A DNA stretch of 61,473 nucleotides from a virus, in IMG/VR virus record IMGVR_UViG_3300035534_000060. One strand, written 5' to 3'. Positions within the stretch are counted from its first letter, which is position 1; every line of letters begins with the position of its first letter. Position numbers and translations under genes: made by a program. The notes beneath the pieces are model-generated. The model was not told where the DNA came from and ran no database searches. It worked only from the letters and a program-made list of their open reading frames with translations. Positions 3,640 to 55,574 of the stretch are shown here, piece by piece.

Positions 3640-3812
3640 AATATGAAACCATTTATAGAAATGATAATAAAGAAACATAAGGAGGAAATTGAATGAAAGG
3701 ACAAAAATTTTATCTGTTAAAGCAGAAGACTCCTTCCGTAAGGGAGGAGATGAATGCGTCAATGGGTGTTTAACACAATGTTTAAATAGTATTAAAACTA
3801 ATATATTTTCTG

Positions 3813-4925
3813 ATGTTAAAGGCTTACAAGTATAGAATGTATCCTGATGAAAAACAAATTGAAATGTTCCATAAACATTTTGGGGCATGTAGATACATCT
3901 ATAATTGGGCGTTGGAAAATAAAATTAAATCTTATGAACAAGAAGGCAAATCGATTTCAAGATTTGAATTAAATGGGAAAATTCGGATGTTGAAAATGGA
4001 GTTCGAATGGTTGAAAGAAATTAATTCTCAATCATTGCAAGGTGCTACTCTTAATCTGGATAATGCTTTTACCAAGTTTTTCCGTGAGAAAAAGGGTTTT
4101 CCTAAATTTAAATCAAAGAAAAATCCGGTACAATCATTTTCTGTTCCACAACATTATGAGGTGGATTTTGATGGTAACAAAGTGAAACTTCCCAAAATTG
4201 GTTGGATTAAGACAAAGTTACATAGACGTTTTGAAGGTAATTTGAAAACTGCAACAATATCAAAAACACCATCTGGTAAATATTTCATTAGTATTCTTGT
4301 AGATGACGAAAAAGATTTGCCTGCCAAACAAAAGTTTAATGAAAACAATACGGTTGGTATTGATGTGGGAATTAAGGATTTTGCCATTACTTCTAATGGT
4401 GAAAAAATAGATAATCCCAAGCATCTTAATAATTCAATAAAACGTTTGAAAGTATTGCAAAAGCGTCTCTCACGAAAACAAAAAGGTTCAAAAAACAGAG
4501 AAAAAGCAAGACAGGAGATAGCAAAACTTCATGAGAAAATCGCAAATCAGAGAAATGATTTCCAGCACAAGTTGACAAGTCGACTCATAAGCGAAAACCA
4601 AGCGATTGCACTGGAAACATTAAACATATCTGGAATGTTGAAAAATCATTGTCTTGCACAATCCATTAATGATGTATCATGGAGTTCTTTTGTAACCAAA
4701 TTGGAATATAAAGCAGAATGGTACGGAAAAACAATTCTCCGTATCGGACAGTTCGAGCCATCTACTAAAATATGCAATATCTGTGGGTATCATAACAAAA
4801 AGATTACACTTGCAGACCGTAAATGGCAATGTCCTGATTGTGGTGAAACTCATGACAGAGATGTCAATGCTGCAATTAACATTAAGAAGTTTGCCTTAAA
4901 TAAACAGAATTTGATAGGTATTTGA
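3813..4925 (+). CDS. tnpB: TnpB (OrfB) RNA-guided endonuclease-like protein
   Basis: N-terminal LKAYKYRMYPDEKQ; RuvC-like GIDVGIKD, ALETLN, HDRDVNAA; zinc finger CNICGYH...CPDCGETH. Confidence 0.85.
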   Translation: MLKAYKYRMYPDEKQIEMFHKHFGACRYIYNWALENKIKSYEQEGKSISRFELNGKIRMLKMEFEWLKEINSQSLQGATLNLDNAFTKFFREKKGFPKFKSKKNPVQSFSVPQHYEVDFDGNKVKLPKIGWIKTKLHRRFEGNLKTATISKTPSGKYFISILVDDEKDLPAKQKFNENNTVGIDVGIKDFAITSNGEKIDNPKHLNNSIKRLKVLQKRLSRKQKGSKNREKARQEIAKLHEKIANQRNDFQHKLTSRLISENQAIALETLNISGMLKNHCLAQSINDVSWSSFVTKLEYKAEWYGKTILRIGQFEPSTKICNICGYHNKKITLADRKWQCPDCGETHDRDVNAAINIKKFALNKQNLIGI

Positions 4926-5045
4926 AGCACCGTAGGAACTACGGGGAGAGCCTGTGGACTTGTTTCCGTTGGGAAAAGGAATGAAGCAGGAAGCACCATG
5001 CGTAAGCGTGGTGTAGTTCACGGGAAGGGTACAGTAGCACATGTG
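4926..5045 (+). ncRNA. Candidate TnpB guide (omega/right-end) RNA scaffold
   Basis: Locally GC-rich, hairpin-prone stretch (e.g. CCGTAGGAACTACGG) directly 3' of tnpB in an AT-rich genome; exact ends unknown. Confidence 0.3.
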
Positions 5046-5638: not shown

Positions 5639-6170
5639 TTTTTTTTATTCTTTTTAATAAAGTAAAGTTGTTTTGTAGTTCATATTATCGGATTTCTGTT
5701 TACTTTAATATTATAGTATATTACTATTATTTACCTATGTGAAACTATTTGTTCACCTATATAAATGTAATTATACTCTGATGTATATATTAAATTTCGA
5801 TAGGTGGGCTGATAGTATTTAATATAAAAACTTGCATCAAAATTTTGAAAAATTATTTTTTTTCTGTGTACTTTAATATTATAGTAATAAGTATTCTATA
5901 TTGTATTATGATATATCACATGTAATAATAATTTATACTGTAAATACAAGGGGCCCAATTTTTCAACCGAAAAAGGGCCAATTTTTTAGGCCCCTTGACT
6001 TAAAGTACACAGAAATAAAGTAGTACATGTCCTAATAATTAAAAACTAATAACAAAAAACATTATCAGGAGAACGATTAGGAAATAAAAACCTTTAATCG
6101 TTATAGGTTTAAACGTTTAAGGTTTTTCATTTATTTTCCCATTAATGTTGAAACCAAACCTATTTATAGA

Positions 6171-8100: not shown

Positions 8101-8313
8101 GGCATGAACTGTTATAGCGTGTGCCGGCTCTCTCACCTGTCCGGCCTATAGGGCGCCCCGGATACCCTGTGTCTAATTTACTACATGCTTTAAACCTATA
8201 TAAAGGTTTTTATTTATTACAAATAGAAACCTATATATACCATTAGCCCCTATAGAATGTTGCCCTTAGGGGCGGGATGTATGAATGGATGCAATTGAAG
8301 AATTGTATGGTAT

Positions 8314-8390
8314 AAATAGAAACCTATATATACCATTAGCACCTATAGTAGATTGTGGCCAGGGGCGGCCCTAATAAGCCTCAATAATAA
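8314..8390 (+). promoter_or_regulatory. Promoter-leader cassette (AAATAGAAACCTATATATA ... GTGGCCAGGGGCGGCCCTAATAAGCCTCAATAA) for 8407..8595
   Basis: Near-identical 75-bp copy at 8972-9050; partial copy at 8221-8275. Confidence 0.55.
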
Positions 8391-8871: not shown

Positions 8872-8971
8872 ATGGATGCTGCAATGATAGGCCTAATAGG
8901 CCTAATCCTTTTAATGGTATTGGGCCTATTCTTAGGCTGTTTGGTTATGATCAAATACTGGATGAGGACAT

Positions 8972-9050
8972 AAAAATAGAAACCTATTTATAGGATAAGC
9001 ACCTATTACTAATTGTGGCCCGGGGCGGCCCTAATAAGCCTCAATAAAAT
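8972..9050 (+). promoter_or_regulatory. Second copy of promoter-leader cassette, for 9068..9622
   Basis: AAAAATAGAAACCTATTTATA plus the same GGCC-rich leader as 8314-8390. Confidence 0.55.
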
Positions 9051-11270: not shown

Positions 11271-11777
11271 GAGTTTTTTAACTGTTTAATTCCTTTATAT
11301 TTTTTATATTTTATATAAATTACTAGTATAGGTACTGACCCCCACAGGCTAAAAAAGTTTAGGGGGTGGGGGGATATTTTTTCTGCGGGATACCCCAAAT
11401 ATAATATGAAATAAAATTTTTCAAAGTAATTGGTTTTAATTTTTAATACCCCAAAATTATAATTATATCAAAAATTAAAAAGTAAAAGGTTTTTAATTTT
11501 AAAACTACCCCATCACTTCACCCAATCAGAAATCCTTTTCTCACTCTCAGGCCTCTCCCTTTCCCAAGGCCTAACCCTACACACAGGCAAATATTCCTAA
11601 ACCGCATCACGCCTCTCCTCAGCATCTTCCCACGCATCCTCAATATTATCCTTCTCAACCACCAAATCCTCAATCTCATCCACAATTTCCTCAGTCCGAT
11701 GCTTATAATAGCGAATCTGATCGGCCAATTCCTCATACTCGCCACGCAACTCCCTAAGTTTCCTTCGATTCATATAA

Positions 11778-12035
11778 TCACCTCATAAAGCAGCGTTCCC
11801 AAATATCTTTCGGCAGACAATGCAGCACACCATACATACTAAATATGACATCTCCCTCCCGCACATGATCATTATACACTTCACCATTCGGGTTTTTCAG
11901 CATCAAGCAACCCAATGTATCAATTTCATCAACAACCCTATAGTCGCCAATCGTAAATTCATATGGCACATCTTCATTAAAATTTACATACCAATAAGGA
12001 ATTTCTGTAATAGGAAAATTAATTTTCCTTATCAT
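11778..12035 (-). CDS. Hypothetical protein (minus-strand island)
   Basis: 85-aa ORF, stop TGA; 4-nt overlap with the upstream gene. Confidence 0.4.
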   Translation of the reverse strand: MIRKINFPITEIPYWYVNFNEDVPYEFTIGDYRVVDEIDTLGCLMLKNPNGEVYNDHVREGDVIFSMYGVLHCLPKDIWERCFMR

Positions 12036-12292
12036 AATCCCGCCTCCTCTAAAATATCAGCGAGGTCTTCTATTGTCATAATACCTGTACTACATCTCCA
12101 TATAGGAATGCTACTCTTAAGTTTAAGAGCATCGAAACATTTATCGGACTCAATCATGAGAAACTTTTTTCTCTCCCTACCTTCCATAATCTTATCATTG
12201 AGCGCATTCAATATATCTATTTCAGTATCAGTGAGCGATTCTCTAATTTCATCTCTGTCCAGAACCATATATTTATTCCTCATATTCAACAC
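12032..12292 (-). CDS. Hypothetical protein (minus-strand island)
   Basis: 86-aa ORF chained by overlaps to its neighbours. Confidence 0.4.
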   Translation of the reverse strand: MLNMRNKYMVLDRDEIRESLTDTEIDILNALNDKIMEGRERKKFLMIESDKCFDALKLKSSIPIWRCSTGIMTIEDLADILEEAGL

Positions 12293-12651
12293 TCCTTTTC
12301 TTCAAATTCAACGCCAAATGTGGGCAGCAATTCGCTCATAGACATGTCAATATGCCTATGTTGATCTCTCATATCGTCCAAATTCTTAGCATTCGTCCAC
12401 TCAATCACCTTCTCAATGGCATCCTGCAAATCTTTCAGAACCACATGCGGCTCATCCATATACCCAGCCCGCACAGAAATATCATACACGCCATTCGAAG
12501 TACACAATATCAGCGATCTATACCAACTTTCAAAAGATTCTTCAAATGCCCCATCTTGTTCAACCAGCCGGGCATCCCTTATCAGCACATATGGGCAGCA
12601 AAACCGCCCATTCTCTTCATCATAGCCACACTTATAATATTCTATTTTCAT
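12286..12651 (-). CDS. Hypothetical Cys-containing protein (minus-strand island)
   Basis: 121-aa ORF; N-terminal CGYDEENGRFCC. Confidence 0.4.
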   Translation of the reverse strand: MKIEYYKCGYDEENGRFCCPYVLIRDARLVEQDGAFEESFESWYRSLILCTSNGVYDISVRAGYMDEPHVVLKDLQDAIEKVIEWTNAKNLDDMRDQHRHIDMSMSELLPTFGVEFEEKEC

Positions 12652-12663
12652 TCTGTCAACACC

Positions 12664-13260
12664 TCACATTACCGCCATAAGATAACCCAAACCAGCACCA
12701 CATAAGAAGAATACAATCATAACCAATATGACCATTCTATTATCTTCACACTCATCGAGTTGTATCCTAAATTCACGATTCGCATCCTTTAGGCGGCTAA
12801 TTTCATTCTCATATGATTCTTTCTTATAGTCACAAAAGACCAATTCTCTCCTAAGACGATTATTAATATCCCGCTCTTTGTGCAAATCGTGCATCAACTT
12901 GTTATCACTCTGCTTTTCCTTCTCAATAGTTTCCCGCATAGTGCATTCAATGCCATGTACCTTATTCTCAAGTTCTTCAATCCGATCTTTTTTATTTTCA
13001 GCAGTGAAGTTTTTATACAAATCTTCCATTGCTTCATCTATAGTATCTCCAAATCCAGCCACAGACTCTTGCAGATTTTTGAAATCTGGCAACTTCACAC
13101 AAAAACTGTCACCATCTTTTTCAAGTTTCACATTTTTAAATCCATACTTTTCAACAAGGTCATCATCCAGTTCTATTATACCACAAACTATTCTCTCTAT
13201 CATATTATCCTCTCGATTAAATTTATCCAGTAAATCTTCCAATGCTTCCACCCTCCTCAT
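12664..13260 (-). CDS. HicB/UPF0150-like domain protein with coiled coil and C-terminal transmembrane anchor
   Basis: LEKDGDSFCVKLPDF...GDTIDEAMEDL resembles the HicB antitoxin fold motif; C-terminal MVILVMIVFFLCGAGLGYLMAVM. Confidence 0.4.
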   Translation of the reverse strand: MRRVEALEDLLDKFNREDNMIERIVCGIIELDDDLVEKYGFKNVKLEKDGDSFCVKLPDFKNLQESVAGFGDTIDEAMEDLYKNFTAENKKDRIEELENKVHGIECTMRETIEKEKQSDNKLMHDLHKERDINNRLRRELVFCDYKKESYENEISRLKDANREFRIQLDECEDNRMVILVMIVFFLCGAGLGYLMAVM

Positions 13261-13404
13261 TTACTTATCCCAGACTTCTTAATCAGCCTATTCTTTAGGC
13301 GTTTTTCTTTACCTCGTTGTTCAGATTCTTTCAACATTTTACCTACATTCATAGTATTTACCTCCTACTCTGAATAGGAGGCAAACCTATATAAATCTGC
13401 TGGT

Positions 13405-14133
13405 TTAAATTTTTAATTTGTCCACAGCAATCTCATATGGCACTTTAAAACTATGTGCGCTCCATGTATATTCACCATCATCACATTCAAAAACAAGGTA
13501 GCCGCAGTCATTTCCATAGGTGACTTTGCCTTTCCTCATAAATCCATCTTTCCATTTCCATGCAGGCGCAATAACACCAAGCATATCTTCCCAGCCAATG
13601 AAATGCAAATAATGTGCGTGACCCCTCAGAGCAACATCTACATTACCATATGTTTCAGGATACATCTTCATGGCCTCAAGATCGCCATTCAGACTCGTTC
13701 CACGGCCTTTCAGCGTTGAACTAGTGCCCACAGCATGCTTCAAATGGAAATCTACACCATCGACCTCAACATGTTTATCAATGTCAAATGTACCGCCGAT
13801 TAAATCCATAACATTTCTATCGGCACTACCATTTGACCCAACATGATAATCAGAACCTTGAACACCAACAAACACATCAGCATCAATCATGCGCAACATA
13901 CCCGCAGCATGCTCTATTTGCAAATCAATATCATTAGTCCAATTGCCAACTCCATCAGATTTTTTATTCTTACCATTAACTGAATCGCCAAGAACAAAAA
14001 CCACATCATAATGCTCGTTACACATATTACGCCATTGTTCCCAGAACATTTTCTGCACTTTATTTTGTCCAACAGCGCAACCATACATATTAGCCCAACT
14101 CGGCATGACAGATGCCATGCAGCCAACATGCAT
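13405..14133 (-). CDS. Calcineurin-like metallophosphoesterase (start uncertain)
   Basis: Motifs SDMHVG (read through the annotated Met), VFVLGDSVNG, RGHAHY; no canonical start between the upstream stop and the ATG. Confidence 0.55.
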   Translation of the reverse strand: MHVGCMASVMPSWANMYGCAVGQNKVQKMFWEQWRNMCNEHYDVVFVLGDSVNGKNKKSDGVGNWTNDIDLQIEHAAGMLRMIDADVFVGVQGSDYHVGSNGSADRNVMDLIGGTFDIDKHVEVDGVDFHLKHAVGTSSTLKGRGTSLNGDLEAMKMYPETYGNVDVALRGHAHYLHFIGWEDMLGVIAPAWKWKDGFMRKGKVTYGNDCGYLVFECDDGEYTWSAHSFKVPYEIAVDKLKI

Positions 14134-14337
14134 ATCAGAAACTACTAAAACTTTCTTCAGACTTTCACTCTCCTTATTGACATACGGTGTTCGTACTTCT
14201 TCAAACCTTTACGGCGCTTAAAAAATTCTAAAATTTTTGACAGCATCATAAATAAATAAAACCCAAAAGGATAAAAGGTTATTGGTATAGCAAAACTTAA
14301 ATAATTTAAGAACCATTATATAAGTGGTGATAATAAC

Positions 14338-15000
14338 ATGCATGTTATACCTAAAGAAAATTATACACTCGATGCCACGGCAGGCACAATAACTTTGTCG
14401 TCTCCATATGATGACCTTGATTTAGAACAGTTTATCACTGTTGTTGATTTGGATACAAACGATGTTATTTATGATGTACACCTTAAACGTGATGGTGTAA
14501 CATTTGCAAACGGCGTACTCACATACACGGCAGATAACAACATAACCAATGATGATGATGATATACGAATAGTAATAAATGATACATCAGGAACTACGCA
14601 GGCAATTGGTGGGTATAGCACTACACTGGATGCACTTAAAATAGTGGAACAAGCGCCAGTAGACCAGCAAGGACTTGATGAGAAAGTTTTGAATGCTGTA
14701 ACAGCAGCAGGTGCAAGCACTGCTGTGAATGTATTAGATAAATCACGTATCATATTCATAGTAGATGCTACCAATGTGACCACTGGGTTTGATATATCAA
14801 TCGAAGGTAGTCCAAATGGTGACGATTGGGGAGAAGTTGGTATTGAAGATAAACAGGGTGTAGAAGCAGGTAGTATCAACATAAATTCAAATGGTATATA
14901 TCTATATAGAGTAGTTGATGCACCTAAATACATACGTGCAAATATAACCAGTTATACTGATGGAACAGCATCAGCATGGATTCAGGGTGGGGCTATCTAA
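14338..15000 (+). CDS. Hypothetical virion-associated protein
   Basis: 220-aa ORF, Thr/Asp-rich, first plus-strand gene after the island. Confidence 0.4.
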   Translation: MHVIPKENYTLDATAGTITLSSPYDDLDLEQFITVVDLDTNDVIYDVHLKRDGVTFANGVLTYTADNNITNDDDDIRIVINDTSGTTQAIGGYSTTLDALKIVEQAPVDQQGLDEKVLNAVTAAGASTAVNVLDKSRIIFIVDATNVTTGFDISIEGSPNGDDWGEVGIEDKQGVEAGSININSNGIYLYRVVDAPKYIRANITSYTDGTASAWIQGGAI

Positions 15001-15380
15001 TGACATTAGACATAATTAAACCAAAACCAGTCGAAGAACAGAACGATTTGAGTAACGTAGATCTACCAGCAATTGTTGCAGCCGGAATTAATCAGGGCGA
15101 TATTGTAGATTTACATTCATGCGTAGAATTTGTAAATACGCAGATTGAACCTGATATTTCAGGTGATGATGTTGAAGGTACATTCAAATCAATCGTGAAA
15201 GAAGCCAAGCGTATGAGTTCAGATGCCGATAAACTTGCAAGAGAAGGTAAATCTGTTACTGAAATTGAAGCAGAACTTACCGGTAACAACTTCACGTATT
15301 CCGATATTGAAGCAATGAAAATTGAAGTTTATGGAACTGTAACTGAATGGAAGAATGCAATGACAGCAGATGAGGTATGA
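14976..15380 (+). CDS. Hypothetical protein
   Basis: 134-aa ORF. Confidence 0.4.
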   Translation: MDSGWGYLMTLDIIKPKPVEEQNDLSNVDLPAIVAAGINQGDIVDLHSCVEFVNTQIEPDISGDDVEGTFKSIVKEAKRMSSDADKLAREGKSVTEIEAELTGNNFTYSDIEAMKIEVYGTVTEWKNAMTADEV

Positions 15381-15386
15381 TATTCC

Positions 15387-15815
15387 ATGCCTCGTCTTAC
15401 GCTTCCAAGTGAAAGTTGTTGTTTTAGATTAGATTCAGACTACGGCTATCGGCAGCAGTTTCCGATGACGTTCAATGATGTTGGATTAAGTGATGATGGG
15501 TTTGAGACTGGAAGTGTGACTGCACCATTCTTTGAAGAACCTGTTTTCATGTATATTGAATATGATGATACTTATCTGGCTGAAGAATACCCGGATTCAC
15601 AAAGTATTGTGACATATACAGATGGTGAAATTACTATTGATTGTTCTGTAAATGTTATTAAGTGTGTGGATATTTACAGTAGGATACTTACTGCTCACGA
15701 AATTGCTGATAGAAATAATAATGTGACTTTCCAGTTTTTGAATGATGTGCCTACTCCTACACAGCAGAAATATTTGGATTGGCAGAATAGTAGAGTAATC
15801 GGGAGGTCACGATAA
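15387..15815 (+). CDS. Hypothetical protein
   Basis: 142-aa ORF. Confidence 0.4.
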   Translation: MPRLTLPSESCCFRLDSDYGYRQQFPMTFNDVGLSDDGFETGSVTAPFFEEPVFMYIEYDDTYLAEEYPDSQSIVTYTDGEITIDCSVNVIKCVDIYSRILTAHEIADRNNNVTFQFLNDVPTPTQQKYLDWQNSRVIGRSR

Positions 15816-17518
15816 TGACACGGACACTTGAAGAATTACGAGAATATCTTGTTGGCGAATGGCTCTTCGATAATGACTTCCTTGATACATCTGGAAATGG
15901 CAATCATGGTACTCCTACTGATATAGAATGGAAACCTACTGCAAGAGGACTGAAACCGTATTTTAATGGTAGTAGTTCTTATATTGATTGTCAAAACCAA
16001 TTAACAGAATCAAATAATATCACTGTTTCTGCATGGGTATATCCAAACATAAATGAAGATGGGGATAAAACGATATTGTCTCAATTTTCAGATGATATAT
16101 ACTCGGGTGCATATACACTTCGGTATAGAGCCAAAAAAAACGGTTATCACTTTTCAGTATGGACTGATGATATATATGTAGATGCTCCAATAGCATCTGG
16201 ATTTTTAAACGGTCAATGGATTCATTTTGTCGGTACTTATGATGGCTCATATATAAAATTATATCAAAATGGTGAATTAGTTGCATCTGATACACTTACT
16301 GGAAACATAAATTATGATGATGATGATGGTGATAGATTCGTGATTGGTGCTAGGGAATATAATTTCCCAGGTACTACTTGGGATGGTAACATTGGCGAAA
16401 TTGGTGTATATTCAACCGCACTCACCGATGATGAAGTCCTTGCACTCTACGAAAGCACCAAACATGCATATGGGGTTGTTCCAGCAGAACGTTCGTTTAC
16501 CCACCGATTACAACCGGAAGTCGATGCAAATACTGTCGCTGCTTTCGATATGAGTACCAAGAACAGCGATGGTACACTCATGGATTTGTCAGGAAATAGT
16601 AATCATGGTGATATACAGGGGGCTGTCAGAGCGGGTGGATATTTCACCGATGGGATGATGTCAGGTTATGGTAATCATAATATAATACAATTCAATCATA
16701 ATAATGATATTGATTTCAGTAAAGAATTATATTTAGAACTCATTATAACTATACCTGATTGGACAAAGGTTGGTAGTTACACACCTGTAATACAAAAGAC
16801 AAATGAACCAAATAATCTAAAAAATGGGTTTAATTTGCGTAAAAATTCTGATAATAATAAATTAACATTTTCGATTGGCAATAGTACAAACACTTCATAT
16901 GAACAAACCAATGTGTTATCTGAAAATAGAAAATATTTAATACAATGTTATTATGAATCAGGTGTTGGTGGAGAAATTTGGTGTGATGGGGAATATTTAA
17001 ATTCACTATCATCTATTGGAGATATTGATCTTAATACAGAACCTATAAACATTTTTAATCGTTCTGATAGGTTGAGCGATGGTCAATATATAATTCAATA
17101 TGCTAAAATAATGAATGTAGTACCAACTGATTCACAAATAAAATCCAGATTCAACTCACTTGCTAACTTACCGCTCTACACCTTCGATGCTTCCAAGTAT
17201 CCCACAAGTAGCGGTTGGACTGCAAATGTACCATACAGCAGCATGTCGATAAGTTCCGGTGAATTCTCATTCACTGATGATGGACAATTACAATGTGATA
17301 GTGCAGGTTCATTTTCACTTCGGAATTCCCATCCCTTCGATGCTGATGAATACATCAAATTGACAATCAATGGTGTCGAATATGCAGGTACAGGTAGTGT
17401 AACTGAAGGTACTGTCACTGTATCCCTGACACAAGGCAGCAATAAGATTAGTGTCAATATGGGTACTGGTGATGTAATAGACGGTATCGATATACAGTTC
17501 AGAGAACCTGTTGAGTAA
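15815..17518 (+). CDS. LamG/concanavalin-A-like lectin domain protein (putative receptor-binding protein)
   Basis: Two LamG-like units: SGNGNHGT...ITVSAWVYP...WIHFVGTYDG...KLYQNGELV...GEIGVYSTALTDDEV and a second GNSNHGD unit. Confidence 0.55.
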   Translation: MTRTLEELREYLVGEWLFDNDFLDTSGNGNHGTPTDIEWKPTARGLKPYFNGSSSYIDCQNQLTESNNITVSAWVYPNINEDGDKTILSQFSDDIYSGAYTLRYRAKKNGYHFSVWTDDIYVDAPIASGFLNGQWIHFVGTYDGSYIKLYQNGELVASDTLTGNINYDDDDGDRFVIGAREYNFPGTTWDGNIGEIGVYSTALTDDEVLALYESTKHAYGVVPAERSFTHRLQPEVDANTVAAFDMSTKNSDGTLMDLSGNSNHGDIQGAVRAGGYFTDGMMSGYGNHNIIQFNHNNDIDFSKELYLELIITIPDWTKVGSYTPVIQKTNEPNNLKNGFNLRKNSDNNKLTFSIGNSTNTSYEQTNVLSENRKYLIQCYYESGVGGEIWCDGEYLNSLSSIGDIDLNTEPINIFNRSDRLSDGQYIIQYAKIMNVVPTDSQIKSRFNSLANLPLYTFDASKYPTSSGWTANVPYSSMSISSGEFSFTDDGQLQCDSAGSFSLRNSHPFDADEYIKLTINGVEYAGTGSVTEGTVTVSLTQGSNKISVNMGTGDVIDGIDIQFREPVE

Positions 17519-17558
17519 TCGACAGGTTTTTCATATTTTTAATACTTTTTAATATGAG

Positions 17559-17753
17559 GTGAAAACTATGGAAGATTTGATAGGTACATTTATAGGCGGA
17601 GTTATCACAGGCGCAGGAATTTTGTATGGGTATTGGAAATCTATACCAAAAAAGAAAAAAGAAGCCGCATTTGAGGAATTAATAAAATCTATGGAAGATG
17701 GAGAAATTTCTGTCTCAGAAGGTATGAATGCAGCAAAAAAGTTAATTTTTTAA
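17559..17753 (+). CDS. Small membrane protein
   Basis: GxxxG-rich hydrophobic N-terminus followed by KKKKE. Confidence 0.4.
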   Translation: MKTMEDLIGTFIGGVITGAGILYGYWKSIPKKKKEAAFEELIKSMEDGEISVSEGMNAAKKLIF

Positions 17754-21301: not shown

Positions 21302-21333
21302 CTCTCAGTTATATTTTCTTCTTTTTTTATTAC

Positions 21334-21390
21334 ACCCTATGCTTAAAGTACACAGAAATAAAATAATTCTGTTTACTTTAATATATAGAG
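21334..21390 (+). repeat. 57-bp element with internal imperfect palindrome AAAGTACACAGAA/TTCTGTTTACTTT
   Basis: Exact reverse complement of 44190-44246; partial copies at 5861-5876 and 5999-6015. Confidence 0.85.
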
Positions 21391-21480
21391 AATAAGGTCA
21401 ATATTAAATACAAACCTATAAAAGTTTACATAAAATAGAAAGATTAATATAGGGTTAGTTATATAAAGGGATATAGGACT

Positions 21481-22803
21481 ATGCCATTTGCAGGATACGA
21501 TAACTTTAAAAATTGTGTGAAGCAGAATCAGGATAAAGAAGACCCAGAGGCATACTGTGCTGAAATACAGGAACAGGTAGAAGGGAGTGATGATATAACT
21601 GAAGATAATAATGTGGGTAGTGTTACATCAACCATACCTATAAAAATTATCGCTACTGAAGATGAAAATATTTTTACAATAGCAGCAGCAAAGGTTGGAA
21701 GTAAATCTTTTGGTGCATCTGGTAAAAAATATGTTTTTACAGAAGAAGCACTTAAAACATATGCTGAATCATGGAATGATGGGATTATTACTCTCAATCA
21801 TAGAAGATTGGATGATGGTGTCATTGTATCTTCATGGTATGATGAAGAAACGCAAATGGTTATGATGAATATTAAAGCAGATAATGAAGAAACTGCTAAA
21901 CGTATTCGTGACGGTGAACCAACCGGTGTTTCCATTGAAGCAAATGTACTTGACAGTGATGATGATGGAAATATTCTCTCTTTTGATGGTACTGGAGTTG
22001 GGATAATTTTTTACCCTGAACAGCCAGCATGTCCAGCAAAAGATGGATGCGGTATTCTTGCCAAAGAACAGTTTGATGAAAAGATTGTTACCGCAAGCGA
22101 AAAGAGGCAAGAAAAGATCAAATCATCTGAGTACGATTTAGCCCGAACAAATGATGCAGGCGACACAATAAAAATTGCTGAAGTAGTCATTTGGGATGAT
22201 ATGGGTGAATTTGAAAAAGATGTTGAATGGCAAATTATCAATTACGTTACTTATTACGGCGAAGGCAGTTATGAACTACTTGAATATTCCGATACGAAAG
22301 TTGGGGATACTGTATCTGGTACACCAGAATATACCGTAAATATTAGCGTAAATAAATCTACTACTAATGGAGAAATCTCTATGGCAAATGATAGCGAACC
22401 CGAAGTAATTGCGAAGGCTGATTATGAAGCCCTCGAAGCAAAGATGAAAAGTCTTGAAGATACACATAAGGATGAGATTGAGGCAAAAGATTCTGAAATC
22501 AAAGAACTTAAGGATGAAATCAATAGGCGTGACAGTGAGATTGCTGCATCACTTGTTGAGGAAATTAAGGCTTGGGATACAGAATTTGAACCTGAAGAAG
22601 GAATGCCACTCTCTACTATTCAGACTATTCATGCATCTGTGAAACGTGCCATTGCTGTACAGGAAGAGGCAAAGGCAAGCGAACAGGAAGAAGAGCCTGA
22701 AGAGGAAATTGAGGCAAGTGAATTTACTGCACCTGAGGCAGGAAAGAAATCTGATGGCTTTACCATTGGCGGAATTGTCAACGGCAAATGGGTCAGCAAA
22801 TAA
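21481..22803 (+). CDS. Putative scaffolding and/or prohead-maturation protein
   Basis: 440 aa between portal and capsid; acidic coiled-coil C-terminal third. Confidence 0.35.
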   Translation: MPFAGYDNFKNCVKQNQDKEDPEAYCAEIQEQVEGSDDITEDNNVGSVTSTIPIKIIATEDENIFTIAAAKVGSKSFGASGKKYVFTEEALKTYAESWNDGIITLNHRRLDDGVIVSSWYDEETQMVMMNIKADNEETAKRIRDGEPTGVSIEANVLDSDDDGNILSFDGTGVGIIFYPEQPACPAKDGCGILAKEQFDEKIVTASEKRQEKIKSSEYDLARTNDAGDTIKIAEVVIWDDMGEFEKDVEWQIINYVTYYGEGSYELLEYSDTKVGDTVSGTPEYTVNISVNKSTTNGEISMANDSEPEVIAKADYEALEAKMKSLEDTHKDEIEAKDSEIKELKDEINRRDSEIAASLVEEIKAWDTEFEPEEGMPLSTIQTIHASVKRAIAVQEEAKASEQEEEPEEEIEASEFTAPEAGKKSDGFTIGGIVNGKWVSK

Positions 22804-47420: not shown

Positions 47421-47984
47421 GTGATACATATGCAAAAAACATGCACTCAATGTAATGATGAATTGATTATAGATGTGAATTGGACTGAAGCATTTAAGAG
47501 AAAAAGGATGTTTAAATGTAAAAGTTGCCATGCCAAAAATACTATGGAATGGAAACATCGTAATGGTACAAAATCAATGTCAGAAAATGACAAATGTTCA
47601 TCGTTCTTAGGTGTATATATCGCAGAGAGAGTTTTATCTAAAGTATTTAAAGATGTTAAAACTATGCCATATGGGCATTCTGGATATGATTTTGTGTGTA
47701 ATAAGGGTAAGAAGATTGATGTGAAAAGCGCATGTATGAAACATAGATATGATTGGAGTCCTTCATATTCATTCGTTTTAAGAAATAATCAAATTGCTGA
47801 TTATTTTCTATGCATTGCATTCGATAATAGAGAAGATTTGAACCCTCTACATTTGTGGTTATTACCAGCAGATATATTTAATCATCTGAATACTTTAAGT
47901 ATATCTGAATCTACATTAAATAAATGGGATGAATATAAATTAGATATTTCACCCACAGTAAAGCAATGTGAACAATTAAAATAA
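47421..47984 (+). CDS. Zinc-ribbon plus PD-(D/E)xK nuclease-like protein (paralog A)
   Basis: CTQC...CKSC; GYDFVCNKGKKIDVKSA fits D...DxK; long nucleotide identity with 48490..49110. Confidence 0.5.
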   Translation: MIHMQKTCTQCNDELIIDVNWTEAFKRKRMFKCKSCHAKNTMEWKHRNGTKSMSENDKCSSFLGVYIAERVLSKVFKDVKTMPYGHSGYDFVCNKGKKIDVKSACMKHRYDWSPSYSFVLRNNQIADYFLCIAFDNREDLNPLHLWLLPADIFNHLNTLSISESTLNKWDEYKLDISPTVKQCEQLK

Positions 47985-47995
47985 GGAGGTACAAT

Positions 47996-48490
47996 ATGAT
48001 AATATCAGGAAAGGAAGTAGCCGAGGCTATGATCGAAGGTGTTATAGACGAAAATGTACAGGTACAAGTCAATGGATATGATATGACTCTTAAAAAGGTC
48101 GAAGGGTATCATACAGATAGTAAGGGAATTCTAGACTTTGATAACAGTCAAAGGGAAAAGCCAAATGTTTCAGTAATACCATTTAACTTCAGAGACAGTG
48201 TATTCCTACGCAAGGGCAATTATCTTATCACACTTGACCCTAAGATGGATATACCACTTGATTGTATTGGGCGATTACTACCACGATCATCACTAGTGCG
48301 CATGGGCTGTACAATAGATGCTGGTGTGTTTGATGCCGGATTTTATGGTCGTGGGCAGGTTATGCTTACAGTACATAATTTGGCAGGCATAAAACTTTAC
48401 AAGAATGCCCGGGTTGCCCAAATGGTTTTCGATAGAATTGAAGGCGGCGAACTAGAAGAAGGGTACAACGGTATATATAATGAGGCTTAA
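47996..48490 (+). CDS. dUTPase/dCTP-deaminase-family protein
   Basis: GCTIDAGVFDAGFYGRGQV resembles the conserved dUTPase-fold motif. Confidence 0.5.
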   Translation: MIISGKEVAEAMIEGVIDENVQVQVNGYDMTLKKVEGYHTDSKGILDFDNSQREKPNVSVIPFNFRDSVFLRKGNYLITLDPKMDIPLDCIGRLLPRSSLVRMGCTIDAGVFDAGFYGRGQVMLTVHNLAGIKLYKNARVAQMVFDRIEGGELEEGYNGIYNEA

Positions 48491-49110
48491 TGATGTCTCA
48501 TTTTAAATTTTGTATTAAATGTGGTTGTGATCTAATACCATACAAAACATGGAGTCCATCATATGTGAGGAAAGGTGTCTATAAATGTAAAAAATGTGAT
48601 TATAAACACACATTAGAATGGCAGAAAAATAACAAAGAAAAGCACTTGGAACGAGCAAGAAATTATAATTATATGCGTGGTGGAAAACCCATGTCAGAAA
48701 ACAAAGAATGTTCGTCATTTCTTGGTTGTTATGTTGCTGAACGGGTGTTATCTAAGGTCTTCAAAGATGTTGAAGTAATGCCAAACAACAATCCGGGATA
48801 TGATTTTGTGTGTAATAAGGGTAAGAAGATTGATGTGAAGAGTTCGTGTGTGAGGAATATGGGTAAGAAATCTCCTATGTGGCATTTTAGTATAAGGAAA
48901 AATCTCATACCTGATTATTTTTTATGTCTGGCATTCGATAATAGAGAAGATTTGAACCCACTATATGCATGGTTATTACCTTCATATAAAATTAATTTTA
49001 AAACATTGGTAGGTATATCTGAATCTACGATTAATAAATGGGATAAATACAAGTTAGATATAGGAAAAGTAGAATTATATTGTAAGAATATGAAGGAGGA
49101 GTCACAATAA
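48490..49110 (+). CDS. Zinc-ribbon plus PD-(D/E)xK nuclease-like protein (paralog B)
   Basis: CIKCG...CKKC; same core as paralog A with near-identical nucleotide blocks (e.g. 48798-48842 vs 47688-47732). Confidence 0.5.
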   Translation: MMSHFKFCIKCGCDLIPYKTWSPSYVRKGVYKCKKCDYKHTLEWQKNNKEKHLERARNYNYMRGGKPMSENKECSSFLGCYVAERVLSKVFKDVEVMPNNNPGYDFVCNKGKKIDVKSSCVRNMGKKSPMWHFSIRKNLIPDYFLCLAFDNREDLNPLYAWLLPSYKINFKTLVGISESTINKWDKYKLDIGKVELYCKNMKEESQ

Positions 49111-53639: not shown

Positions 53640-55523
53640 ATGGATACTAAAACGCAGAAAATTTTGGATGAGGCTAAAGTTCTTATCCTAGACATTGAGG
53701 CAACCAGTCTTGATATAGATACAGCAGTTACTCGTGTGGTTGGTGTAAAGACTAATCAGAGTTCTAAAATTCATTGTATATGGGCAAAGGATTTTGATAA
53801 ACTTAGAAAAGCGATTAAGAAATCAGATTTTATTGTCACATATAATGGCAATAATTATGATATTCCAGTATTACTCAATGATTATAATAAATTATTCAAA
53901 TATGAAACATCATTGACTGGTAAACATATAGATTTATATGATGTTGTTACATCAAGAGAGGCAACTTTTGGCACAAATTTCTTGGATGGGTATTCTCTTG
54001 ATGCTGTTTGTAAGACTCTCGGACTTTCGAGAAAAGTTCAGGATTTTGATTATAATCTTCTAAAGAACGAATATGAGGATATGACTCAAGATGAGATTGA
54101 AGAAATTGAGTATTATCTAAGGCAGGATATAGAAATCACTAATGAACTGTATGAATTTATTGAAGAAATGTATCAGCCATTGGCATTGTTTTTGCCCAAA
54201 AATGATGTGCGCAAAAAGAATTACATAAAATCTTCTATGGGCGCAATAACATACAAAGTAATTTGCCATATGTCAGGGCTTCAACCTACTTATGATGGCG
54301 CATATGTCGATGATGGGTCAGATACCTACAAAGGCGGCCATGTATTTGAGCCTACAAAGGAAAAAGCCGTAGGTAATATTAAATGTGTAGATTATACATC
54401 TGCATATCCTCATGCGTATATGCAGGCTAATCTGTACACTAAATGTAAGCACTGTACTGAAGGAGAATGCCAATATAGGTACACTGGCGGCACTACACCT
54501 GATGGGCATACATTAGAATTACAGGGCGAGTATTGTACTCGTGGTGGCATGGGTGTACGTGAGAGAGTGATACAAAAATTATTCTTATTAAGATTAGATG
54601 CTAAGAATAAAATTAAATCTTATCAAAAACGTAAGAATAATGGTGAAATTTTATCTGAAGATGAAAAGGAAAATTTAAATTATCTAAATAAATTTCAACA
54701 GGGTCTAAAGATAATTATTAATACAATTTATGGTATTTCAGGGTCGCCCAAATTCTTGCAGACATATGATGCTGATACGGCGGCAGATTGTACAAAAATT
54801 TGTAGATTTAATTTACTTTATCTTCATCATAAATTAATTGAGTTTGAAAATGAACATCTTTATGGAGATACCGATAGTGAGTATATTATATGCCCAGATG
54901 ATCTGACTGATGATGAACTTCAAGAACAATTAAACGAAATTATCACAAATCTCAAAAGTATTTATCCATTTCCTCAAGACACATTTAAGATTGATATTGA
55001 GGATAGCATGAAGTTTATGGGATTTTTTAGTGATGGTCATGGCGAATTTAAGAAGAAGAAATACATCATGGTCATGGATGATGATAAAGTTAAAGTCAAA
55101 GGACTTTCTATAGTGCGCCGAGACAGTTCATTTCTTGCCCGTAAAATATGGAATGAAAATATTAAAGAATATATTAGCACAAATCTGTCTCATAAAATTC
55201 CATTGTCATATATAGATGGTTGGATTTCAGATGCTATTGAAACTGATATTGAAAATGCGGCAATTGAATTTAAAGTTAAGCCATTAGAAATGTATAATAG
55301 TACCACAAGCATACAGTCAAAAATTTCTGAAGAGTTAGGTGAAGGCAAGCACAAACTAATTAAGAATAGACGTGGTATAGGTATAGGCAAAGGTGTGTCA
55401 TATGCTACTCTCGATCAGGCAAAAAATTTCACTATTGCTGATATTGATTTGAGTAGAGTTTACTCAGATTTATCTGATGTAACTGATGACGCACAGAAAA
55501 CATTTACACGATTCATGGTGTAA
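53640..55523 (+). CDS. Family B DNA polymerase with 3'-5' exonuclease domain
   Basis: Exo I LILDIEA, Exo II YNGNNYDIPVL, Exo III YYLRQD; motif A VDYTSAYP, B KIIINTIYG, C YGDTDS. Confidence 0.8.
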   Translation: MDTKTQKILDEAKVLILDIEATSLDIDTAVTRVVGVKTNQSSKIHCIWAKDFDKLRKAIKKSDFIVTYNGNNYDIPVLLNDYNKLFKYETSLTGKHIDLYDVVTSREATFGTNFLDGYSLDAVCKTLGLSRKVQDFDYNLLKNEYEDMTQDEIEEIEYYLRQDIEITNELYEFIEEMYQPLALFLPKNDVRKKNYIKSSMGAITYKVICHMSGLQPTYDGAYVDDGSDTYKGGHVFEPTKEKAVGNIKCVDYTSAYPHAYMQANLYTKCKHCTEGECQYRYTGGTTPDGHTLELQGEYCTRGGMGVRERVIQKLFLLRLDAKNKIKSYQKRKNNGEILSEDEKENLNYLNKFQQGLKIIINTIYGISGSPKFLQTYDADTAADCTKICRFNLLYLHHKLIEFENEHLYGDTDSEYIICPDDLTDDELQEQLNEIITNLKSIYPFPQDTFKIDIEDSMKFMGFFSDGHGEFKKKKYIMVMDDDKVKVKGLSIVRRDSSFLARKIWNENIKEYISTNLSHKIPLSYIDGWISDAIETDIENAAIEFKVKPLEMYNSTTSIQSKISEELGEGKHKLIKNRRGIGIGKGVSYATLDQAKNFTIADIDLSRVYSDLSDVTDDAQKTFTRFMV

Positions 55524-55546
55524 ATAGAAACCTATATATAGGTTTA
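55523..55546 (+). promoter_or_regulatory. BRE/TATA promoter containing perfect palindrome AAACCTATATATAGGTTT
   Basis: AAATAGAAACCTATATATAGGTTT about 30 nt upstream of SD+ATG of 55575. Confidence 0.5.
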
Positions 55547-55574
55547 AACTATATTAGATGTAGGAGGTATAATT

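What the first reader, a model, noticed from the sequence alone, without database searches (positions are those of the whole stretch)
11597..14211. Minus-strand accessory island in an otherwise plus-strand genome half
Between AT-rich non-coding flanks, five to six minus-strand genes interrupt the plus-strand organisation: a metallophosphoesterase, a HicB-like coiled-coil protein with a membrane anchor, and three or four small proteins without recognisable motifs. Opposite-strand islands between the early region and the structural genes are where viruses commonly keep host-interaction or defence-related cargo. A metal-dependent phosphoesterase could hydrolyse nucleotide second messengers or dephosphorylate host proteins.
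Basis: inference. Interest (0 to 1): 0.55.

Follow-up and report, generated by a model that had tools for sequence, protein, structure and literature searches.

The report
Opposite-strand operon led by DP1-like phosphoesterase
The minus-strand block is a real, tightly packed operon of an archaeal tailed virus: its first gene is a conserved, apparently active enzyme most like the proofreading nuclease subunit of archaeal DNA polymerase D, and the small genes behind it are lineage-specific and of unknown function, so this is a modest, largely ordinary finding.

Summary
Observation confirmed. Window 11597-14160 (perhaps to 14249) holds seven, possibly eight, back-to-back minus-strand genes. AT-rich spacers flank them (29-31% GC against 39%) and GC skew flips sign. 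It is the only minus-strand block in the first 39 kb.

The window is an archaeal-type tailed virus: its terminase is closest to Methanofastidiosa viruses and haloviruses, and it carries an AEP primase, PolB, an RFC-like ATPase and RNR.

The lead gene is a 251-aa metallophosphoesterase.
- It must start at a CTG codon (14160). The annotated ATG would remove the motif I aspartate.
- It belongs to a large unnamed family of stand-alone proteins of about 255 aa (1483 clusters).
- It is present in every relative found and under strong purifying selection (21 synonymous against 1 non-synonymous change). It is core, not variable cargo.

The six downstream genes have no homologues in relatives whose phosphoesterase is 55-57% identical. 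The 198-aa coiled-coil, tail-anchored membrane protein shows strain-level domain deletions, and its 'HicB-like' label found no support.

The hypervariable locus is the neighbouring plus-strand LamG cluster.

Best guess for the enzyme is a DNA nuclease (about 50%). An anti-defence phosphodiesterase role is not excluded.

The parts
14161..14337 (.). AT-rich divergent spacer between the island and the plus-strand gene starting at 14338. It is the presumed promoter region. A palindromic TATA-like TTATATAA sits at about 14316-14323. The possible g0 ORF lies within this spacer.
   Evidence: 28.8% GC. Sequence read. No convincing sigma-70 promoter, which fits an archaeal host. Promoter assignment is inference.
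14157..14249 (-). g0: possible 30-aa basic leader ORF. Its TGA stop overlaps the CTG start of g1 (CTGA).
   Evidence: Relatives L004 and L007 also have an unrelated small ORF whose stop overlaps the phosphoesterase ATG (ATGA). It is identical in L003. Whether it is translated is unproven.
13405..14160 (-). g1: stand-alone DP1-like metallophosphoesterase, 251 aa, starting at CTG 14160. Conserved residues: D9/H11, G58/D59, G102..Y105/H106, H142, H181/H183.
13257..13352 (-). g2: 31-aa basic peptide (pI 10.8). In strain L003 it is fused in frame to the C-terminal part of g3.
   Evidence: AGGAGG lies 8 nt upstream.
12664..13260 (-). g3: 198-aa acidic protein with an N-terminal globular domain (~1-90), a coiled coil (~90-175) and a C-terminal transmembrane tail anchor (177-198).
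   Evidence: Hydropathy. Only coiled-coil-type sub-threshold Pfam hits. Strain variants lack the N-domain (L003, L029), lack the distal coiled coil (P0006), or carry a different N-terminal extension (P0004).
12896..13274 (-). 379-bp segment (end of g2 plus g3 codons 1-113) that is present in the window, L002 and L028 and absent in L003/L027 and L029.
   Evidence: blastn break points. The 101-aa fusion ORF in L003 is shown.
12286..12651 (-). g4: 121-aa acidic protein with 5 Cys and no recognisable domain.
   Evidence: 95% identical in L003.
12032..12292 (-). g5: 86-aa protein (likely 83 aa from the ATG at 12283). Its N-terminal 40 residues match phage families of unknown function.
   Evidence: phrog_5992 E 3.4e-5 and phrog_11427 E 3.2e-4. 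No Pfam hit.
11778..12035 (-). g6: 85-aa protein with no recognisable domain, under purifying selection.
   Evidence: 5 synonymous against 1 non-synonymous change versus L003. No family hits.
11597..11773 (-). g7: 58-aa highly acidic protein, predicted helical or coiled coil.
   Evidence: Only sub-threshold coiled-coil-type hits (WXG100, TolA_bind_tri, SMC-related).
11271..11596 (.). AT-rich convergent spacer between the end of the plus-strand early genes (11270) and the end of the island. Presumed terminator region with T-runs.
   Evidence: 31.0% GC. Sequence. No bacterial-type terminator found.

Best explanation
**What it is.** The block is one divergently transcribed operon of an archaeal tailed virus.

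**Lead gene (shown).** It encodes a stand-alone metallophosphoesterase that keeps four of the five metal-site motifs and has an invariant variant of the third. It is a specific relative of the phosphodiesterase domain of DP1, the 3'-5' proofreading exonuclease subunit of archaeal DNA polymerase D.

**Lead gene (inferred).** It most likely acts as a metal-dependent DNA exonuclease or end-processing nuclease in viral genome replication, recombination or maturation.

**Evolution (shown).** It is a conserved core gene of this virus clade. It sits on the strand opposite the structural genes in all three lineages examined, next to the terminase/LamG region where the flanks are known, and is under strong purifying selection.

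**Translation start.** Translation must begin at a CTG that overlaps the stop of a short upstream ORF. This probably works by translational coupling (inferred).

**Downstream genes.** The genes behind it are lineage-specific passengers of unknown function that use the same transcript. They are a 31-aa basic peptide, a coiled-coil tail-anchored membrane protein and four small acidic proteins. The membrane protein is modular and gains or loses domains between strains.
For: **Operon anatomy and strand switch:**

**Archaeal virus.** The terminase is closest to Methanofastidiosa viruses and haloarchaeal tailed viruses. The genome carries an AEP primase, XPD-like helicase, PolB, RNR, an RFC-like AAA protein and a Dam methylase.

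**The enzyme.**
- Pfam Metallophos is above threshold.
- The exhaustive profile search gives 1483 clusters at E<=1e-3, and the 150 best are nearly all about 240-300 aa.
- Eight columns are invariant in 106 sequences (G58, G63, Q81, H106, H142, H181, H183, G220), and D9, H11, D59, G102 and Y105 are conserved in at least 90%.
- The PDB profile search finds DP1 first (E 8e-6 to 4e-5); the next best hits are at E>=0.05.
- hhalign against a DP1-family protein gives 96% probability, with shared SDLHVGSN and GD..EG...Q...LL.MI signatures.
- The AF2 model has pLDDT 89.1 and pTM 0.90.
- Foldseek: the best query-normalised TM-score is to PolD DP1 (0.66-0.67), against about 0.5 for Vps29, Rv0805 and GpdQ.
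- 31 of 106 family members hit phrog_284 'exonuclease' and 8 hit 'DNA repair exonuclease'.
- The best viral fold matches include several phage proteins annotated 'DNA polymerase II small subunit'.

**Conservation.** The gene is present in L003 (99%), L004 (57%), L007 (55%) and vir555 (28%). Against L003 there are 21 synonymous and 1 non-synonymous changes.

**Context elsewhere.** Distant members lie next to SF2 helicases, a primase-helicase and DNA methyltransferases.

**Precedent.** Group C magroviruses carry a homologue of the PolD exonuclease subunit inserted in the structural module (PMC5434244).

**Downstream genes are accessory.** No match in L004 or L007. Indel variants are shown.
Against: - No biochemical data exist for any member of this family. 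Fold similarity does not fix the substrate.
- Motif III is not the canonical GNH(D/E). It is G-[ST]-x-Y-H, so the chemistry may differ from DP1 or Mre11.
- The protein lacks DP1's OB-fold and N-terminal domains.
- No DP2 was seen among the window proteins scanned, and the viral PolB has no Cys-rich C-terminal domain for a B-subunit to bind.
- No Rad50/SbcC partner was seen.
- The viral PolB already has its own exonuclease domain, so a proofreading role would be redundant.
- The non-canonical CTG start is unverified. If the ATG at 14133 is used, the protein lacks the motif I aspartate.
- Genomic contexts of family members are heterogeneous. Some lie next to glycosyltransferases.
Confidence: 0.5

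Rival explanations
1. Anti-defence phosphodiesterase. The enzyme would hydrolyse host immune second messengers, such as cyclic oligoadenylates from type III CRISPR or CBASS/Pycsar-type nucleotides. The small downstream genes would be further anti-defence cargo.
For: - The operon lies in a divergent, AT-flanked position, with variable small ORFans behind a conserved lead gene.
- Family members often sit in arrays of small early genes next to DNA methyltransferases.
- Motif III is atypical.
Against: - The specific sequence and fold affinity is to the DP1 exonuclease, not to cNMP phosphodiesterases.
- No island protein makes a credible PADLOC match, though that library covers defence systems rather than anti-defence genes.
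- The gene is core and slowly evolving in the clade, unlike typical fast-turnover anti-defence genes.
- No metallophosphoesterase-fold viral ring nuclease is known to me (own knowledge).
Confidence: 0.17
2. Membrane or lipid-directed phosphodiesterase that helps egress or envelope remodelling. It would work with the co-operonic tail-anchored membrane protein g3.
For: - A membrane-anchored protein is encoded in the same operon.
- A similar idea was raised for a phosphoesterase near holins in a Poseidoniales virus (PMC11706807).
Against: - g3 is absent from relatives that keep the enzyme (L004, L007), and its domains are dispensable between strains.
- The enzyme has no hydrophobic segment (max hydropathy 1.2).
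- DP1 is the better match.
Confidence: 0.07
3. Ser/Thr/Tyr protein phosphatase, as in lambda phage phosphatase, that reprograms host proteins.
Against: - The PPP-family signatures GDxVDRG and GNHE are absent (GDSVNG and GSDYH instead).
Confidence: 0.04
4. Non-catalytic B-subunit-like accessory factor of the viral family-B DNA polymerase, analogous to eukaryotic polymerase B-subunits, which derive from DP1.
Against: - All candidate metal-ligand residues are invariant or nearly so across 106 family members, which argues for catalysis.
- The viral PolB lacks the Cys-rich C-terminal domain that binds B-subunits.
- The OB domain is absent.
- vir555 carries the enzyme, but no PolB is annotated in the 16.8-kb stretch of it examined.
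Confidence: 0.04

Closest known systems
DP1, small subunit of archaeal DNA polymerase D (3'-5' proofreading exonuclease; PDB 5ihe, 6hms, 8ppt; Pfam PF04042 + PF00149)
   Same: - Best match by sequence profile (E 8e-6).
- Shared local signatures: SDLHVGSN, GD..EG...Q...LL.MI, GH.H, C/AW[KQ].
   Different: - Only the phosphodiesterase domain is present (251 aa against about 450-620 aa). There is no OB fold and no N-terminal domain.
- No PF04042 hit.
- Motif III is G[ST]xYH instead of GGNHD.
- No DP2 partner was seen.
PolD-exonuclease homologue inserted in the structural module of group C magroviruses (Philosof et al. 2017, PMC5434244)
   Same: An archaeal tailed virus with its own PolB-based replication module and a DP1-like nuclease gene placed beside or inside the structural and packaging genes. 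In relative L004 the gene lies between the LamG cluster and an HNH endonuclease plus terminase.
   Different: - No sequence comparison with the magrovirus protein was possible here.
- Neither the window's terminase hits nor the PolB search (no hit at all) pointed to magroviruses in the phage collection.
- The function of the magrovirus gene is also unknown.
Phage metallophosphoesterases annotated 'exonuclease' (phrog_284, phrog_7339) or 'DNA polymerase II small subunit' (about 400 aa; e.g. Lactobacillus phage 3-521, Bacillus phage BSP38)
   Same: Same fold (Foldseek E 1e-12 to 1e-9, TM about 0.6). 31 of 106 family members hit phrog_284.
   Different: - The window protein itself does not reach any PHROG at E<=0.001.
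- The phage proteins are about 150 aa longer.
- Among 50,697 GenBank phage records, tblastn with three family members (the window protein, P0160, P0170) matched only two, vir555 and MW202647, both weakly.
Mre11/SbcD nucleases
   Different: No capping domain. No Rad50/SbcC partner was seen among the window proteins scanned. Lower structural score than DP1.
HicB antitoxin family
   Same: Only a short resemblance to the pattern '..P.f....G.G.T..EA...l' at residues 55-85 (read from the sequence).
   Different: No HicB Pfam hit even at E<=10. No PDB sequence hit. No HicA partner. The fold was not tested.

Membership tests
Calcineurin-like metallophosphoesterase superfamily (PF00149) | Pfam model score above the gathering threshold | tested here: met
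   25.3 bits against a cut-off of 21.5, N-terminal part only. 75 of 106 family members hit Metallophos.
Calcineurin-like metallophosphoesterase superfamily (PF00149) | Motifs I (DxH), II (GD), IV (H) and V (GHxH) with metal ligands present | tested here: met
   H142, H181 and H183 are invariant, and D9, H11 and D59 are conserved in at least 90% of 106 sequences.
Calcineurin-like metallophosphoesterase superfamily (PF00149) | Motif III GNH(D/E), with the Asn as a metal ligand | tested here: not met
   The family has G102-[ST]-x-Y105-H106 and no Asn. The His is kept. What this does to the chemistry is unknown.
Calcineurin-like metallophosphoesterase superfamily (PF00149) | Beta-sandwich metallophosphoesterase fold | tested here: met
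PolD DP1 / polymerase B-subunit family (PF04042) | Phosphodiesterase domain specifically related to DP1 | tested here: met
PolD DP1 / polymerase B-subunit family (PF04042) | OB-fold domain preceding the phosphodiesterase domain, and a PF04042 match | tested here: not met
   The protein is 251 aa and motif I starts at residue 9. No PF04042 hit for it or for 106 relatives.
PolD DP1 / polymerase B-subunit family (PF04042) | Partner catalytic subunit with a Cys-rich C-terminal domain (DP2 or a CTD-bearing PolB) | tested here: not met
   The viral PolB C-terminus has no Cys motifs. No DP2-like protein among the window proteins scanned. Not every window ORF was scanned.
Mre11/SbcD | Capping domain and a Rad50/SbcC ATPase partner | tested here: not met
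HicB antitoxin (g3) | HicB-type domain detectable by profile | tested here: not met
   No HicB family at E<=10. No PDB sequence match.
Known anti-phage defence system components (PADLOC) | Match to a defence-protein model | tested here: not met
   Seven of the eight island proteins have no hit. g3 has only weak coiled-coil-type hits (E 1e-3 to 8e-3).
Variable accessory island (strain- or lineage-variable cargo locus) | Content differs between related genomes while the flanks are conserved | tested here: inconclusive
   - g1 is conserved in all relatives.
- g2-g7 are kept at 87-99% identity in the close relative L003 but are absent from L004 and L007.
- g3 carries indels.
- The adjacent plus-strand block is the part that is swapped between close strains.

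The most novel reading that the evidence does not exclude
The enzyme represents a large, unnamed, almost purely metagenomic family of virus-borne stand-alone DP1-like phosphoesterases. The family has 1483 clusters at 50% identity and only weak matches in two GenBank phage records. Its altered metal site (G-[ST]-x-Y-H in place of GNH) might give it an activity not yet described for viral metallophosphoesterases. One example would be degrading host immune nucleotide signals, or a specialised nucleic-acid end chemistry. On this reading the enzyme would anchor a slot where lineage-specific counter-defence genes accumulate.
Probability: 0.15. Interest if true: 0.6.

Novelty: new member of a known kind. 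Interest (0 to 1): 0.3.

Why it matters
- The finding puts a name and a testable activity on the one recognisable gene of the island. It shows that a DP1-like nuclease domain circulates as a stand-alone gene in many uncultured viruses, extending the single earlier remark about group C magroviruses.
- It corrects the gene model. The CTG start is needed to keep the catalytic aspartate.
- It moves the variable 'host-interaction hot spot' from the island to the neighbouring LamG-domain cluster.
- The practical consequence is modest. There is no evidence for a new mechanism, and the small genes remain of unknown function.

Tried and rejected
- **Nucleotide search.** blastn of the region against GenBank phages found no match.
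- **First structure attempt.** The AF2 run with a 3-sequence alignment failed (pLDDT 41.9). It was repeated with 19 sequences.
- **Tool failures.** The afdb50 fold library was unavailable.
- **HicB-like reading of g3.** No support from Pfam, even at E<=10, or from PDB sequences.
- **Defence or anti-defence labels.** PADLOC and NCBIfam gave nothing usable.
- **RNA genes.** No Rfam family and no tRNA in the window.
- **Bacterial signals.** The sigma-70 promoter and intrinsic terminator scans were at background level.
- **B-subunit idea.** The PolB C-terminus has no Zn-finger motifs.
- **Repeated promoter element.** The island's flanks share no repeat with other intergenic regions.
- **Homologues of neighbours' genes.** Genes next to the L007 and L004 phosphoesterases were searched in the window. 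The L007 operon genes and the small ORF upstream of the L004 enzyme had no match. The L004 genes on the structural side matched the window's LamG cluster and the 187/206-aa paralogues.
- **Guilt by association in distant family members.** Contexts were mixed: helicase, primase, methyltransferase, glycosyltransferase. This is suggestive only.
- **A recent preprint on viral metallophosphatases** (10.64898/2026.07.21.739742) deals with Mre11-Rad50 fusions, not this family.
Full report
**1. The observation**

The ORF map and the sequence show an uninterrupted run of minus-strand genes between 11597 and 14160:
- g1: 251 aa
- g2: 31 aa
- g3: 198 aa
- g4: 121 aa
- g5: 86 aa (probably 83 aa)
- g6: 85 aa
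- g7: 58 aa
- a possible 30-aa ORF g0 (14157-14249), whose stop overlaps the start of g1

Genes g2 to g7 abut or overlap: ATGA overlaps at g2/g3 and g5/g6, and gaps of 2-12 nt at g3/g4, g4/g5 and g6/g7. A 52-nt spacer separates g1 from g2. Each of g1-g7 is preceded by a GGAGG/GAGGTG-like motif.

GC skew is negative (-0.25 to -0.42) only here within the first 39 kb. The two flanking spacers are 28.8% and 31.0% GC, against 38.8% inside the block.

A second minus-strand block exists at 39060-44145 (AEP primase, XPD-like helicase).

**2. What the genome is**

The large terminase is most similar to tailed viruses of Methanofastidiosa and of haloarchaea. The window also encodes:
- an HK97-type capsid protein, an AEP primase, an XPD-like helicase, a family-B polymerase with its own exonuclease domain, and a ribonucleotide reductase;
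- an RFC-like ATPase, a thymidylate-synthase-like protein, a Dam methylase and a LamG-domain protein;
- a TnpB element.

There is no sigma-70 signal above background, no tRNA and no Rfam family. This is an archaeal-type tailed virus with an autonomous replication module. The host was not identified.

**3. The lead gene**

*Gene model.* Pfam calls g1 a calcineurin-like phosphoesterase just above threshold (25.3 against 21.5 bits). All homologues begin MKKVLVV-[SG]-D-x-H. The only way to encode this in the window is to start at CTG 14160, 9-10 nt after AAGGAG. The ATG at 14133, used in the database gene call P0001, would remove the β1 strand and the motif I aspartate. The CTG is also present in the close relative L003. 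In L004 and L007 the corresponding ATG overlaps the stop of an unrelated short upstream ORF. Translational coupling is therefore a reasonable inference for the CTG.

*Family size.* The word-indexed search found only three close homologues. The exhaustive profile search found 1483 clusters at E<=1e-3 and 755 at E<=1e-10, and the 150 best listed are nearly all about 240-300 aa.

*Conserved residues.* Eight columns are invariant in 106 sequences (G58, G63, Q81, H106, H142, H181, H183, G220). D9, H11, D59, G102 and Y105 are conserved in at least 90%. Four of the five metallophosphoesterase motifs are intact. Motif III is G-[ST]-x-Y-H rather than GNH(D/E).

*Closest relatives.*
- A profile search of PDB sequences returns the PolD small subunit DP1 first (E 8e-6 to 4e-5), far ahead of anything else.
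- hhalign against a DP1-family protein gives 96% probability.
- That DP1 shares the SDLHVGSN and GD..EG...Q...LL.MI signatures.
- With a 19-sequence alignment AlphaFold gives pLDDT 89.1 and pTM 0.90.
- Foldseek gives its best query-normalised TM-score to PolD DP1 chains (0.66-0.67).
- Among viral models, the best matches include several phage proteins auto-annotated 'DNA polymerase II small subunit'.
- 31 of 106 family members hit phrog_284 'exonuclease'.

*What it is not.* The protein is only the phosphodiesterase domain. It has no OB fold and no PF04042 match. No DP2 was seen, and the viral PolB has no Cys-rich C-terminal domain for a B-subunit. It is therefore DP1-like, not a DP1.

**4. Is it variable cargo?**

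Related genomes were recovered through IMG/VR, metagenome and assembly look-ups. L002 is the same virus as the window (100% identity). L003/L027 is a close strain (94-98%). L004 and L007 are more distant, with phosphoesterase identities of 57% and 55%. vir555, a Methanomicrobiales virus, is remote (28%).

The phosphoesterase is present in all of them. Between the window and L003 it shows 21 synonymous and 1 non-synonymous differences (pN/pS 0.01). In the window, L004 and L007 it lies on the strand opposite the genes it faces. In the window and L004, where both flanks are known, those are the LamG cluster and the terminase-side structural genes, but the exact slot differs. In the window it is upstream of the LamG cluster. 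In L004 it is alone, with a 54-aa upstream ORF, between that cluster and the HNH endonuclease and terminase genes.

By contrast g2-g7 have no tblastn match in L004 or L007. L007 has five different small genes behind its phosphoesterase, and L004 has none.

Within the close strains, g3 is polymorphic:
- A 379-bp segment (12896-13274) is missing in L003 and L029. This fuses g2 in frame to the C-terminal coiled coil and anchor.
- Another variant (P0006) keeps the N-domain and the anchor but lacks the distal coiled coil.
- P0004 has a different N-terminal extension.

So the lead gene is core, and the genes riding behind it are lineage-specific.

**5. The other island proteins**

g3 has an N-terminal globular part, a long coiled coil and a hydrophobic tail at the extreme C-terminus (hydropathy 2.53 at residues 177-195). 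That is a tail-anchored topology. The 'HicB-like' reading is not supported: no HicB profile hit even at E<=10 and no PDB sequence match. A fold test could not be run.

g4, g6 and g7 have no hits above noise. g5 shares its first 40 residues with phage families of unknown function (phrog_5992, E 3.4e-5). No island protein makes a credible match to PADLOC. Only g3 gave weak, coiled-coil-type hits there.

**6. Mechanism**

*Shown.* This is a compact operon. Its first gene is a conserved, constraint-bearing, DP1-related metallophosphoesterase that keeps four of the five metal-site motifs and has an invariant variant of the third.

*Inferred.* The enzyme is a metal-dependent DNA exonuclease or end-processing nuclease that serves replication, recombination or genome maturation. 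Four points support this:
- the specific DP1 affinity;
- the PHROG 'exonuclease' relatives;
- neighbours in distant members: SF2 helicases, an NrS-1/D5-type primase-helicase and DNA methyltransferases;
- the precedent of a PolD-exonuclease homologue placed in the structural module of group C magroviruses (PMC5434244).

I put this at about 0.5.

*Caveats.* Motif III is altered. The viral PolB already has an exonuclease domain. Some distant members have other neighbours, such as glycosyltransferases. No member of the family has been characterised.

Lipid phosphodiesterase, protein phosphatase and non-catalytic B-subunit roles are each unlikely.

**7. Novelty and score**

The island is real but ordinary in kind: a divergent early or middle operon with one recognisable enzyme and several genes with no known relatives. 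DP1-like nucleases in archaeal tailed viruses have been noted before.

What is new is the size of the stand-alone family, its non-canonical motif III, the CTG start, and the near-absence of the family from GenBank phage records (weak matches in two records when three members were searched). I rate it a new member of a known kind, interest 0.3.

The most novel reading that the evidence leaves open is a new enzymatic activity or an anti-defence anchor. I give that a probability of about 0.15.

Noticed in passing
window 14312-17567 (plus-strand genes of 220, 134, 142 and 567 aa; the last carries a LamG domain): This block, directly upstream of the island, is the part that is swapped between close strains.
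- In L003 it is replaced by unrelated DNA with a 430-aa gene.
- In L028 it has diverged to 77% identity and has an extra inserted paralogue.
- L029 is chimeric: the first ~385 nt of the 220-aa gene, then L003-type sequence.
- In the more distant L004 the cluster is conserved in order (36-67% identity).

It looks like a host-recognition cassette.
   Followed up: partly
window 3709-5023 (TnpB gene 3813-4925); L003 7925-8163; L029 52-138: The window carries an IS200/605-type TnpB element. In L003 the sequences flanking the window's TnpB gene (3709-3795 and 4919-5023) lie 48 bp apart with no TnpB between them. This miniature derivative lies next to the terminase-side junction of the swapped LamG-replacement module.
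   Followed up: partly
window 14157-14160: The phosphoesterase needs a CTG start that overlaps the TGA of a 30-aa upstream ORF (CTGA). Relatives have ATGA at the same junction. Public gene calls for this protein (P0001, 242 aa) start at the downstream ATG and cut off the catalytic Asp.
   Followed up: yes
window 21327-21397 and 44183-44253 (shorter copies at 5851-5876 and 5999-6022): A 71-bp inverted repeat (98.6% identity) contains a small hairpin (ACAGAA...TTCTGT). One copy lies upstream of the plus-strand gene at 21481 and the other upstream of the minus-strand helicase operon starting at 44145. It is also conserved in L003 and L004. It is possibly a shared promoter or regulatory element.
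   Followed up: partly
window 8218-8275, 8311-8387, 8971-9047: Direct repeats of about 60-78 bp (84-88% identity) lie in the early small-gene region. A weaker copy is near 55515-55559.
   Followed up: no
window 47421-47984 and 48490-49110; L004 15916-17267, 18289-18852, 4819-5505; L028 2715-3102: A paralogous gene family (187 and 206 aa; weak DUF6998 hit) has two copies in the window and four in L004. In strain L028 one copy is inserted between the phosphoesterase promoter and the LamG cluster.
   Followed up: no
L003 11124-11234; L029 3751-3859: Strains with the short g3 also carry an extra insert of about 105 bp, encoding a 36-aa acidic ORF, between g3 and g4. The window lacks it.
   Followed up: no
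L004 3525-4832 and 18845-19693: The relative L004 encodes a CCA-adding/poly(A)-polymerase-like protein with an HD domain and an ATP-dependent ligase. This hints at nucleic-acid repair functions in this virus clade. No counterpart turned up in the window, but not every window ORF was scanned.
   Followed up: no
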